From: a virus
Taxonomy: Duplodnaviria > Heunggongvirae > Uroviricota > Caudoviricetes
Length of the DNA: 38,555 nt
Reading direction: 5' to 3' (one strand)
Virus record (IMG/VR): IMGVR_UViG_2537562091_000004
Shown here: positions 15,914 through 17,692 of the stretch, piece by piece
How positions within the stretch are numbered: the first letter of the stretch is position 1
How the letters are laid out: every line of letters starts with the position of its first letter
Notes under the pieces: generated by a model
Told to the model about the DNA's origin: nothing
The model's input: only the letters and a program-made list of their open reading frames with translations
Databases searched by the model: none
Made by a program: the position numbers and the translations under genes

Positions 15914-16103
15914 ACTACAGGCGCTGCGTCAGGCGCGCCTTGATTTATTAACCGGTAAACGGGTGGTGTCTGTCCAGAAAGATGGTCGCAGAATTGAATA
16001 TACGGCGGCTTCTCTGGATGAGCTTAACCGGGCGATCAATGATGCGGAGTCGGTACTGGGGACAACCCGACGTCGCCGTCGTCCGCTGGGAGTGAGGTTA
16101 TGA
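15897..16103 (+). CDS. W: Head-tail joining protein gpW
   Basis: 68 aa, LTGKRVVSVQKDGRRIEYTAASL resembles lambda W. Confidence 0.85.
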   Translation: MVTVAELQALRQARLDLLTGKRVVSVQKDGRRIEYTAASLDELNRAINDAESVLGTTRRRRRPLGVRL

Positions 16104-17692
16104 AACGAACGCCTGTCCTGATTGATGTGAACGGCGTTCCGCTTCGTGAGAGTCTCAGCTACAACGGGGGCGGCGCAGGATTTGGCGGGCAAATGGCGGA
16201 GTGGTTGCCACCGGCGCAGAGTGCCGATGCAGCCCTGCTGCCTGCGTTGCGTCTGGGGAATGCCCGGGCAGATGATCTGGTGCGCAATAACGGGATAGCG
16301 GCTAATGCGGTGGCCCTGCATAAGGATCATATTGTCGGGCATATGTTTCTGATCAGCTACCGTCCGAACTGGCGCTGGCTGGGGATGCGGGAGACTGCGG
16401 CATAAAGTTTTGTCGATGAGGTGGAGGCGGCCTGGTCGGAATACGCCGAAGGGATGTTTGGCGAGATCGACGTGGAAGGGAAACGCACGTTTACGGAATT
16501 TATCCGTGAAGGTGTGGGCGTTCATGCGTTTAACGGCGAAATCTTTGTGCAGCCGGTCTGGGATACGGAGAGCACGCAACTGTTTCGTACGCGTTTTAAA
16601 GCCGTGAGTCCGAAACGGGTGGACACGCCAGGACACGGTATCGGGAACCGTTTTCTGCGGGCCGGTGTGGAGGTCGATCGATATGGCCGTGCCGTTGCGT
16701 ACCATATCTGTGAGGATGATTTTCCGTTCTCTGGGAGTGGACGATGGGAACGGATCCCGCGTGAACTTCCCACCGGGCGTCCGGCCATGCTGCATATTTT
16801 CGAGCCGGTGGAGGACGGGCAGACCCGTGGGGCCAATCAGTTTTACAGCGTAATGGAACGGCTGAAGATGCTCGATTCCCTGCAGGCAACACAGCTTCAG
16901 TCGGCCATAGTGAAGGCGATGTATGCAGCGACGATTGAAAGTGACCTTGATACCGAAAAGGCCTTTGAATATATCGCCGGTGCGCCGCAGGGGCAGAAGG
17001 ATAATCCGCTTATTAATATTCTGGATAAGTTCTCCACCTGGTATGACACGAATAGCGTGACGCTGGGCGGTGTCAAAATTCCGCACCTTTTCCCCGGTGA
17101 TGATCTGAAACTTCAGACCGCGCAGGATTCAGACAATGGATTTTCGGCGCTTGAACAGGCGCTGCTGCGGTATATCGCCGCCGGTCTTGGCGTTTCCTAC
17201 GAACAGTTGTCCCGTGATTACTCGAAGGTCAGTTATTCAAGTGCCCGCGCATCCGCCAATGAGTCGTGGCGCTATTTTATGGGGCGGCGAAAATTTATTG
17301 CGTCCCGGCTGGCCACGCAGATGTTTTCCTGCTGGCTGGAAGAGGCACTTCTTCGGGGGATTATTCGTCCGCCACGGGCACGTTTTGATTTTTATCAGGC
17401 GCGATCAGCCTGGTCACGGGCTGAGTGGATTGGAGCCGGAAGAATGGCCATTGACGGGCTCAAGGAGGTTCAGGAATCAGTGATGCGCATTGAGGCCGGA
17501 CTGAGCACGTATGAGAAAGAGCTGGCGCTGATGGGCGAGGATTATCAGGACATTTTCCGCCAGCAGGTCAGGGAATCTGCAGAGCGGGAAAAAGCCGGAC
17601 TCTCACGTCCGGTGTGGATAGCGCAGGCGTATCAGCAGCAGATAGCGGAGAGTCGCAGGCCGGAAGAGGAGACAACACCACGTGAGACGTAA
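16100..17692 (+). pseudogene. B: Portal protein gpB interrupted by an in-frame TAA (16403-16405)
   Basis: ORFs 16100..16405 and 16421..17692 are in the same frame, and lambda-B-like sequence runs straight through the stop (…RETAA*SFVDEVEAAWSEYAEG…). Confidence 0.75.

What the first reader, a model, noticed from the sequence alone, without database searches (positions are those of the whole stretch)
16100..17692. Portal gene B carries a single in-frame TAA within otherwise conserved sequence
The two portal ORFs are in the same frame and the lambda-B-like protein sequence is continuous across the stop (…RPNWRWLGMRETAA * SFVDEVEAAWSEYAEG…); from memory lambda has Lys (AAA) at this codon. One substitution in an essential gene, with no other decay, indicates recent inactivation, so this prophage probably cannot make infectious particles on its own. 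A sequencing error or stop-codon readthrough cannot be excluded.
Basis: partly seen in the sequence, partly recalled or inferred. Interest (0 to 1): 0.55.

Follow-up and report, generated by a model that had tools for sequence, protein, structure and literature searches.

The report
Nonsense-killed portal gene in decaying prophage
A single A-to-T change has put a real stop codon into the portal (head-entrance) gene of a phage-21/lambda-like prophage of E. coli, but this is ordinary prophage decay: the same prophage also carries an IS1-linked loss of its repressor and replication genes and two more broken genes.

Summary
Window 16100-17692 is a phage-21-type (lambda B-like) portal gene cut by an in-frame TAA at 16403-16405. 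The closest intact allele (E. coli 09-02E) differs by one base in 1593: A->T at 16403, AAA (Lys102) -> TAA. Phage 21 also has AAA.

The TAA allele is private to the source assembly (GCA_000191015.1). No copy appears in 5426 complete E. coli genomes or in three public contig collections, where the AAA control is abundant. A separate assembly of run SRR031805 gives the same T, so a sequencing error is unlikely.

"No other decay" is wrong. The same prophage also has:
- a 7-bp deletion that frameshifts the esterase gene;
- a CAG->TAG stop in the tail-fibre assembly gene;
- an IS1 at the window's left edge, replacing 6.1 kb that in the nearest relative holds the RacR repressor, cro-like gene, replication genes and dicB.

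The other 37 mapped genes are intact. Lineage-private substitutions (2 synonymous, 4 missense, 2 nonsense) fit neutral drift.

Verdict: a genuine nonsense pseudogene in a locked-in, decaying prophage. This is an ordinary, well-known phenomenon of low interest.

The parts
16100..17692 (+). Portal gene (phage 21 gp4 / lambda B homologue), now a pseudogene. It would encode 530 aa if codon 102 were sense.
   Evidence: One nt differs from the intact WP_021551910.1 gene of E. coli 09-02E. DNA identity to the phage 21 portal is 96.9%. phmmer against lambda gpB (PDB 8k38) gives E=3e-214. PF05136 is split over the two pieces.
16403..16405 (+). Premature ochre stop TAA, caused by an A->T transversion at 16403 (AAA Lys102 -> TAA). 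The context is GCA-TAA-AGT.
   Evidence: No exact match among 1269 places in 1018 complete E. coli genomes. The TAA pattern gives 0 hits in the viral, metagenome and genome collections, while the AAA control gives at least 120 hits in each of the two collections scanned.
16100..16405 (+). N-terminal fragment ORF (101 aa), the only product with a proper ribosome-binding site. It corresponds to lambda gpB residues ~1-104, about the first 80 ordered residues of the wing domain.
   Evidence: (SD duplex -9.0 kcal/mol at 16100). Lambda domain limits come from PMC10721106.
16421..17692 (+). Downstream in-frame ORF from GTG codon 108 (423 aa). It is a mechanical ORF with no convincing ribosome-binding site, so it is probably not translated or only marginally.
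   Evidence: SD duplex energies for in-frame restarts are -0.1 to -4.3 kcal/mol (-1.5 at GTG108, -4.3 at ATG119), against -5.6 to -9.5 for genuine late-gene starts.
1..453 (+). Right-hand 453 nt of an IS1 copy. The window starts just after a 228-N scaffold gap inside IS1, and the junction with prophage DNA (upstream of queH) is at 453|454.
   Evidence: The two contig ends overlap by 55 nt and merge into a 768-bp element. The flanks map to L028 9498 and 3369, so 6128 bp is missing relative to strain 20AR0300. There is no target-site duplication.
7115..8961 (+). SASA / DUF6645 carbohydrate esterase gene (617 aa in relatives), frameshifted by loss of one unit of a CCAGCAG-CCAGCAG tandem repeat after ~7845.
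   Evidence: The 386-aa fragment is on record only in GCA_000191015.1.
36637..37221 (+). Tail fibre assembly gene tfa (194 aa in relatives) with an amber stop TAG at 36955-36957 (CAG Gln107 -> TAG).
   Evidence: The same TAG appears in Logan assemblies of runs SRR031805, SRR024151 and SRR035424.
13465..36637 (+). Remainder of the late morphogenetic operon: Nu1, A, W, [portal], C/Nu3, D, E, FI, FII, Z, U, V, G, T, H, M, L, K, I, J, lom, stf-like fibre. All are intact apart from the portal.
   Evidence: 37 of the 40 CDSs annotated in relatives map to uninterrupted ORFs in the window.

Best explanation
The TAA is a genuine, lineage-private nonsense mutation (A->T, Lys102->ochre) in the portal gene of a phage-21-head / Rac-type-immunity lambdoid prophage. 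In relatives this prophage is integrated at ompW.

Translation from the normal start stops after 101 residues. That gives a fragment with part of the wing domain and none of the stem, clip, tunnel loop or crown. No dodecameric portal can form, so proheads competent for DNA packaging cannot be made from this prophage's own genes.

The mutation is one of several neutral hits that accumulated in late genes, which are silent in the lysogen. The same prophage has also lost its repressor, cro and replication module to an IS1-associated 6.1-kb deletion, carries a frameshifted esterase gene, and has an amber stop in tfa. The element is therefore a locked-in, decaying prophage remnant, not an otherwise intact phage disabled by one hit.

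Shown: the substitution, its private status, the other lesions, and the intactness of the remaining late genes. Inferred: loss of function, lack of expression, and neutrality.
For: - One base differs from an intact allele over 1593 nt, and the codon is AAA in that allele and in phage 21.
- None of 1269 places in complete E. coli genomes matches the 61-mer exactly. The TAA pattern gives 0 hits and the AAA control at least 120 hits in the viral and metagenome collections.
- The exact 101-aa product with a real stop occurs only in GCA_000191015.1 and in a Logan re-assembly of SRR031805. That re-assembly is 100% identical to the window over 13,111 nt.
- PF05136 is split 2-69 / 78-354.
- Lambda gpB domain map: wing 24-249 and 368-452, stem, clip, crown. 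The aligned residue, Arg105, lies inside the wing.
- No in-frame restart has a usable Shine-Dalgarno sequence. There is no suppressor tRNA among the three tRNAs in the window.
- Other lesions: the 7-bp deletion, the tfa amber and the IS1 with 6128 bp missing.
- Of 8 private substitutions in 25 kb, 2 are synonymous, 4 missense and 2 nonsense, as expected without purifying selection.
- There are no single-base homopolymer indels against a relative over 34.7 kb, so the local assembly quality is good.
Against: - Read-level counts were not available. The Logan assembly probably uses the same reads as the deposited genome, so it rules out a consensus or assembly slip but not a systematic read error.
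- The IS1 junction lies at a scaffold gap. Adjacency of the two flanks rests on the submitter's scaffolding plus the exact 768-bp merge, and IS1 is multicopy.
- Loss of function is inferred from the classical lethality of lambda B nonsense mutants (established knowledge) and was not tested.
- 2 nonsense changes among 8 private substitutions is slightly more than the ~3.5% per-substitution expectation (binomial P about 0.03). The numbers are tiny.
Confidence: 0.86

Rival explanations
1. The T at 16403 is a sequencing or consensus error in a 2011-era draft assembly, and the real gene is intact (AAA).
For: The allele is seen in one strain only. The site lies in a run of five A's. The Logan contig of the same run shows one 1-nt indel against the window elsewhere, so the reads are not error-free.
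Against: The change is a substitution, not a homopolymer-length error. An independent assembly of SRR031805 reproduces it within a 13.1-kb stretch of that contig identical to the window. The window has no single-base indels against a relative over 34.7 kb. The second nonsense change (tfa) is reproduced in three separate runs, which shows that real disruptive mutations exist in this prophage.
Confidence: 0.05
2. This is the first reader's reading: an otherwise intact, inducible prophage very recently disabled by this one substitution alone.
For: The portal gene has no other private change. 37 of 40 mapped genes, including all other head, tail and lysis genes and Q, are intact. The IS1 join sits at a scaffold gap and could in principle be mis-scaffolded.
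Against: The left and right contig ends overlap by 55 nt and merge into an exact 768-bp IS1. Its flanks are 6128 bp apart in the nearest relative and lack a target duplication. The missing interval holds racR, a cro-like gene, ydaT, the O- and P-like genes and dicB. Two more genes are broken.
Confidence: 0.05
3. The stop is bypassed or compensated, so portal function persists. Possible routes are an ochre suppressor or readthrough, reinitiation giving a working split portal, or supply of portal in trans by a co-resident phage-21-type prophage.
For: E. coli genomes that carry this portal type have a median of two matching places for the gene. Defective lambdoid prophages of O157 Sakai with head or portal defects are packaged through complementation by other prophages (PMC2669165). 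A Lys-inserting ochre suppressor would restore the wild-type protein.
Against: There is no suppressor tRNA in the window. UAA is the most efficiently terminated stop in E. coli (established knowledge). Restart codons lack Shine-Dalgarno sequences. The N-terminal 101 residues include the segment best conserved between lambda and phage 21, so a C-terminal fragment alone is unlikely to fold into the wing. Trans-supplied portal would not replace the missing repressor, early-promoter and replication region. The stop is not conserved in any relative, so it is not programmed.
Confidence: 0.04

Closest known systems
Phage 21 portal gp4 and lambda portal gpB (Pfam PF05136 Phage_portal_2; PDB 8k38 and related entries)
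   Same: Same gene and same position between W and the S49 protease/scaffold gene C. DNA identity to phage 21 gene 4 is 96.9%, with 10 amino-acid differences plus the stop. Alignment to lambda gpB gives E=3e-214.
   Different: The reading frame is interrupted at codon 102. The intact proteins are 530 aa (phage 21) and 533 aa (lambda). Lambda has Arg (CGT) where phage 21 and the relatives have Lys (AAA).
Classical lambda gene B nonsense (amber) mutants, the conditional-lethal head-assembly mutants (textbook lambda genetics, from my own knowledge)
   Same: A nonsense codon in the portal gene. The expected phenotype is no functional proheads and no DNA packaging in a non-suppressing host.
   Different: Those are laboratory-selected UAG mutants of lambda kept on suppressor hosts. 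This is a spontaneous UAA in a resident phage-21-type prophage of a sequenced E. coli isolate, alongside other lesions.
Defective lambdoid prophage pool of E. coli O157:H7 Sakai (Asadulghani et al. 2009, PMC2669165)
   Same: Lambdoid prophages that keep most late genes but carry point, IS or deletion defects in portal, head, repressor or replication functions. There is a possibility of complementation by sibling prophages.
   Different: No experimental data exist for this strain. Here the whole immunity and replication block is gone, whereas several Sakai prophages are still excisable and replicating.
Cryptic Rac-type prophages of E. coli K-12 (RacR immunity; knowledge of K-12 cryptic prophages is my own)
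   Same: The nearest relative has a RacR repressor with ydaS/ydaT-like and dicB-type early genes. Decay proceeds by IS-mediated deletion and point mutations.
   Different: The K-12 remnants have lost nearly all structural genes. This element retains a complete, almost undamaged phage-21/lambda-type late operon and sits at ompW.

Membership tests
Lambda-family portal protein (PF05136; lambda gpB / phage 21 gp4) | Significant match to the family profile above the curated cut-off | tested here: met
   Fragment 1 scores 59.8 bits and fragment 2 scores 257.4 bits against a cut-off of 32.9. They cover consecutive profile segments 2-69 and 78-354.
Lambda-family portal protein (PF05136; lambda gpB / phage 21 gp4) | Full-length, gap-free colinearity with characterised portals | tested here: met
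   1593 nt are colinear with phage 21 gene 4 and with annotated E. coli portal genes. Query residues 5-523 align to lambda gpB 7-527.
Lambda-family portal protein (PF05136; lambda gpB / phage 21 gp4) | Conserved position in the head-gene cluster (Nu1-A-W-portal-C-D-E) | tested here: met
Lambda-family portal protein (PF05136; lambda gpB / phage 21 gp4) | One uninterrupted polypeptide carrying the wing, stem, clip and crown domains | tested here: not met
   There is a stop at codon 102 inside the first wing segment. It is a portal gene by descent but not a functional member.
Pseudogene in a defective (cryptic) prophage | Premature stop relative to intact orthologues, with a sense codon as the ancestral state | tested here: met
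   The codon is AAA in the sequenced relatives compared directly, including phage 21. No exact match to the TAA context exists among 1269 places. Pattern scans give 0 TAA hits and at least 120 AAA hits per collection scanned.
Pseudogene in a defective (cryptic) prophage | Independent additional lesions in the same element | tested here: met
   Esterase frameshift, tfa amber, and IS1 with 6128 bp of the immunity and replication region missing. The IS1 join rests on a scaffold.
Pseudogene in a defective (cryptic) prophage | Substitution pattern without purifying selection on the lineage | tested here: inconclusive
   The 8 private substitutions are 2 synonymous, 4 missense and 2 nonsense. This fits neutrality, but there are too few for a test.
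Pseudogene in a defective (cryptic) prophage | Demonstrated inability to produce particles | not testable with these tools
   This needs induction, EM, plaque or qPCR assays on the strain.
Programmed stop-codon readthrough / recoding | The stop codon is conserved at that position among homologues | tested here: not met
   The stop is private to one genome.
Programmed stop-codon readthrough / recoding | A cognate suppressor tRNA or recoding signal is present | tested here: inconclusive
   No suppressor is found among the window's tRNAs (CAT, TCG, TCT).

The most novel reading that the evidence does not exclude
The prophage remnant is kept because it interferes with related phages. A superinfecting phage with a compatible Q antiterminator would switch on the remnant's late operon. 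The 101-residue portal fragment contains the wing segment most conserved between lambda and phage 21. It would co-assemble with and poison the incoming phage's portal ring, so a 'dead' portal gene would act as a dominant-negative defence factor. Nothing found here supports this beyond the fragment keeping its native ribosome-binding site and the Q gene being intact. It is merely not excluded.
Probability: 0.02. Interest if true: 0.6.

Novelty: already known. Interest (0 to 1): 0.1.

Why it matters
It matters little beyond correct annotation. The locus should be recorded as a portal pseudogene inside a defective, probably non-inducible prophage, and should not count as an 'intact' prophage or as two short portal-family proteins.

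It is a clean small example of early prophage decay. An almost complete late operon carries a handful of private hits, and the immunity and replication block has already been removed by IS1.

It also gives a practical warning. A single obvious lesion should not be read as the cause of inactivation without comparing the whole element with close relatives.

Tried and rejected
1. Exact-sequence look-up of the 101-aa fragment first seemed to show the allele in many assemblies. Inspection showed that all but two are contigs that merely end at nt 302-305 of an intact portal gene, several of them reading CAA or CAAA. They were rejected as an artefact.

2. I tried to order the lesions in time by looking for complete genomes that share the IS1 junctions but keep AAA. 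No genome shares either junction, so the order stays unknown.

3. I searched the paper library for the assembly, scaffold and run accessions to identify the strain. There were no hits.

4. I looked for a suppressor tRNA in the window and found none.

5. I looked for a credible in-frame restart that would give a split portal. None has a usable Shine-Dalgarno sequence.

6. Programmed readthrough was considered and rejected because the stop is not conserved anywhere.

7. I could not test for a second, intact phage-21-type portal elsewhere in the source genome. The tools cannot retrieve other contigs of a named assembly.

8. Structure prediction was not run. The solved lambda portal and its published domain limits already place the stop.

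Full report
**1. The observation**

Reading 15900-17800 and listing ORFs shows an ATG ORF at 16100-16405 (101 aa) that ends in TAA at 16403-16405. A same-frame ORF runs from 16421 to 17692 (423 aa from a GTG). Translating 16100-17692 straight through gives one 530-codon sequence with a single internal stop at codon 102...WLGMRETAA*SFVDEVEAAW.... Pfam PF05136 (Phage_portal_2, lambda family) matches both pieces as consecutive segments of one model, profile 2-69 and 78-354. With codon 102 restored, the protein aligns over residues 5-523 with lambda portal gpB (PDB 8k38) at E=3e-214.

**2. The ancestral state**

The 1593-nt stretch matches annotated "phage portal protein" genes in 1877 of 5426 complete E. 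coli genomes. It matches phage 21 and its relatives at 97-98%. In relatives the gene is an uninterrupted 1593-nt CDS lying between the gpW-like gene and the S49 protease/scaffold gene.

A base-by-base comparison gives these results:
- E. coli 09-02E differs from the window at exactly one position, A instead of T at 16403 (AAA Lys102).
- Strain 20AR0300 differs at that position and one other.
- Phage 21 has 49 nucleotide differences and also reads AAA.

Lambda itself has Arg105, codon CGT, at the aligned position.

**3. Is the allele real, and how widespread is it?**

A 61-mer centred on the stop has no exact match in any of 1269 places in 1018 complete E. coli genomes. The best matches are 60/61. 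A degenerate 29-nt pattern carrying TAA finds nothing in the viral, metagenome or species-representative genome collections.

The exact 101-aa product is on record in scaffold GL872249.1 of assembly GCA_000191015.1. The locus fetched from that scaffold matches window 6100-26405 exactly, so it is the source. The product is also in a Logan assembly of sequencing run SRR031805, which is 100% identical to the window over 13,111 nt. Every other apparent hit is a contig that simply ends at nt 302-305 of an intact portal gene, which is an artefact of looking up by exact sequence.

The T is therefore private to one strain and has been reproduced by an independent assembly of raw data. The window shows no single-base indels against a close relative over 34.7 kb, so the local assembly quality is good. 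A sequencing error is unlikely, although I could not count reads.

**4. Consequence for the protein**

According to the cryo-EM model, lambda gpB has four domains (PMC10721106):
- wing, residues 24-249 and 368-452;
- stem, 250-279 and 343-367;
- clip, 280-342;
- crown, 453-511.

The stop aligns with lambda residue 105, which lies inside the first wing segment. The only product with a good ribosome-binding site is the 101-residue fragment (duplex with the anti-Shine-Dalgarno sequence -9.0 kcal/mol). It lacks the stem, clip, tunnel loop and crown.

In-frame restart codons downstream (GTG108, ATG119 and others) have duplex energies of -0.1 to -4.3 kcal/mol. Six genuine late-gene starts give -5.6 to -9.5. 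The three tRNA genes in the window have anticodons CAT, TCG and TCT, so none is a suppressor.

From established lambda genetics, B nonsense mutants are lethal without a suppressor. The inference is loss of portal function. That step is inferred, not shown.

**5. The rest of the prophage**

I aligned window 3802-38555 to the nearest complete relative, strain 20AR0300. Identity is 99.84%, with 50 mismatches and one indel.

*Lesions inside the window:*
- *Esterase frameshift.* The indel is the loss of one unit of a CCAGCAG-CCAGCAG tandem repeat at about 7845. It frameshifts the 617-aa SASA/DUF6645 esterase gene. The resulting 386-aa fragment is on record only in the source assembly.
- *tfa amber.* The mismatch at 36955 turns CAG (Gln107) of the tail-fibre assembly gene tfa into TAG. 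The same TAG is present in Logan assemblies of three runs: SRR031805, SRR024151 and SRR035424.

*The IS1 and the missing early region:*
- The window begins inside IS1. A locus reaching 2.2 kb further left (L027) shows the order: exonuclease gene, truncated DUF1482 gene, IS1 left end, a 228-N scaffold gap, IS1 right end (window 1-453), then queH.
- The two contig ends overlap by 55 nt and merge into exactly 768 bp, the canonical IS1 length.
- In strain 20AR0300 the two flanks are 100% and 99.9% identical to the source but lie 6128 bp apart.
- That interval carries dicB, a DUF1391 gene, the repressor racR, a cro-like HTH gene, ydaT, an O-like HTH gene, a P-like ATPase gene, and DUF1627 and DUF977 genes.
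- There is no target-site duplication, which fits an IS1-mediated adjacent deletion.

If the scaffold join is right, the prophage has no repressor, no early promoters or operators and no replication genes. It should then be neither inducible nor able to replicate.

*What remains intact:* 37 of the 40 CDSs annotated in relatives map to intact ORFs in the window. These include Q, the lysis genes, terminase and all other head and tail genes. In relatives the element sits at ompW, next to yciE and the trp operon.

**6. Evolutionary reading**

I compared the window with four relatives over 13300-38555. The window has 8 private substitutions: 2 synonymous, 4 missense and 2 nonsense. A 3:1 ratio of non-synonymous to synonymous changes is what unconstrained drift gives. 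About 3.5% of random single-base changes in these genes create stops, so 2 of 8 is somewhat high (P about 0.03), but the counts are tiny.

Neither IS1 junction occurs in any complete E. coli genome. All four lesions therefore lie on the terminal branch of this strain, and their order cannot be resolved. The portal hit is "recent" in the sense that the gene has no further private change. It cannot be called the event that inactivated the prophage.

**7. Mechanism, and how sure I am**

The most likely account (about 0.86) is a spontaneous A->T transversion in a late gene that is silent in the lysogen. The mutation was fixed by drift in a prophage that is being dismantled. The result is a portal pseudogene.

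The rivals are:
- a sequencing error (about 0.05);
- functional bypass by suppression, reinitiation or portal supplied in trans by a sibling prophage (about 0.04). Bypass has a precedent in the O157 Sakai prophage pool (PMC2669165), but it would not replace the missing early region.

**8. Comparison with what is known, and novelty**

By descent this is a lambda-family portal gene of the phage 21 gp4 type. It fails the one membership criterion that matters for function, an uninterrupted reading frame. Functionally it resembles the classical lambda B nonsense mutants. Its context resembles the defective lambdoid prophages of O157 Sakai and, at an earlier stage of decay, the Rac-type cryptic prophages of K-12.

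Nonsense pseudogenes in decaying prophages are commonplace, so nothing here is new in kind. The most novel reading not excluded is that the retained N-terminal portal fragment acts as a dominant-negative interference factor against related phages. It has no positive support (probability about 0.02).

**9. Verdict**

The finding is ordinary, with interest 0.1. The useful corrections are these:
- the ancestral AAA is that of the phage-21-type allele, not of lambda;
- the allele is private to one strain and is probably real;
- the prophage has at least three other lesions, one of which removes the immunity and replication module.

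Noticed in passing
window 1-453 (and L027 1603-2653): The window starts inside an IS1 copy, just after a 228-N scaffold gap. The contig ends overlap by 55 nt and merge to 768 bp. Relative to strain 20AR0300, 6128 bp is missing, carrying racR, a cro-like gene, ydaT, O- and P-like genes and dicB. There is no target-site duplication, and neither junction occurs in any complete E. coli genome.
   Followed up: yes
window 7115-8961: The SASA/DUF6645 carbohydrate esterase gene (617 aa in relatives) is frameshifted by loss of one unit of a 7-bp tandem repeat (CCAGCAG) at ~7845. 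The fragment is on record only in the source assembly.
   Followed up: yes
window 36637-37221: The tail fibre assembly gene tfa has an amber stop (CAG->TAG at 36955, codon 107 of 194). Three separate sequencing-run assemblies reproduce it.
   Followed up: yes
window 11431-13060: A convergent, overlapping gene pair lies between the Rz lysis gene and Nu1. It consists of a cII-like/sce7726 protein (+ strand) and a 'beta family' protein (- strand). PADLOC hits are 'cll' (4e-31), 'beta' (3.5e-10) and PD-Lambda-2_C (4e-32), which suggests a candidate anti-phage defence moron.
   Followed up: partly
window 5890-6139: Three tRNA genes (anticodons CAT, Arg-TCG, Arg-TCT) lie downstream of a DNA methyltransferase gene and upstream of the late region. 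NCBI's PGAP annotation calls the first one tRNA-Ile in relatives. None is a suppressor.
   Followed up: partly
window 28109-28493: 37 of the 50 mismatches against strain 20AR0300 cluster in 385 bp spanning the K and I tail genes. The pattern suggests a small recombination patch rather than point mutation, and both genes remain open.
   Followed up: partly
window 37056-37270 and 38105-38320: A ~216-bp direct repeat (about 91% identical) made of the tfa 3' end and a downstream tfa fragment flanks a minus-strand SAM-dependent methyltransferase gene (37276-37944). Relatives annotate the downstream copies as pseudogenes.
   Followed up: no
L006-L013 (contigs from other assemblies): Many public contigs end at nt 302-305 of intact portal genes and so yield the same 101-aa partial product. 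Exact-protein look-ups can therefore mimic sharing of a truncation allele.
   Followed up: yes
window 462-1520: queH (epoxyqueuosine reductase) and hokD toxin genes sit in the nin-like region of the prophage, directly next to the IS1 junction.
   Followed up: no
L014 597-1010 (strain 20AR0300): The closest relative is itself defective in a different way. It lacks window 1997-3801 (DUF968, RusA and the 5' part of Q), and its Q gene is annotated as a partial pseudogene. The same prophage lineage is therefore decaying independently in different strains.
   Followed up: partly
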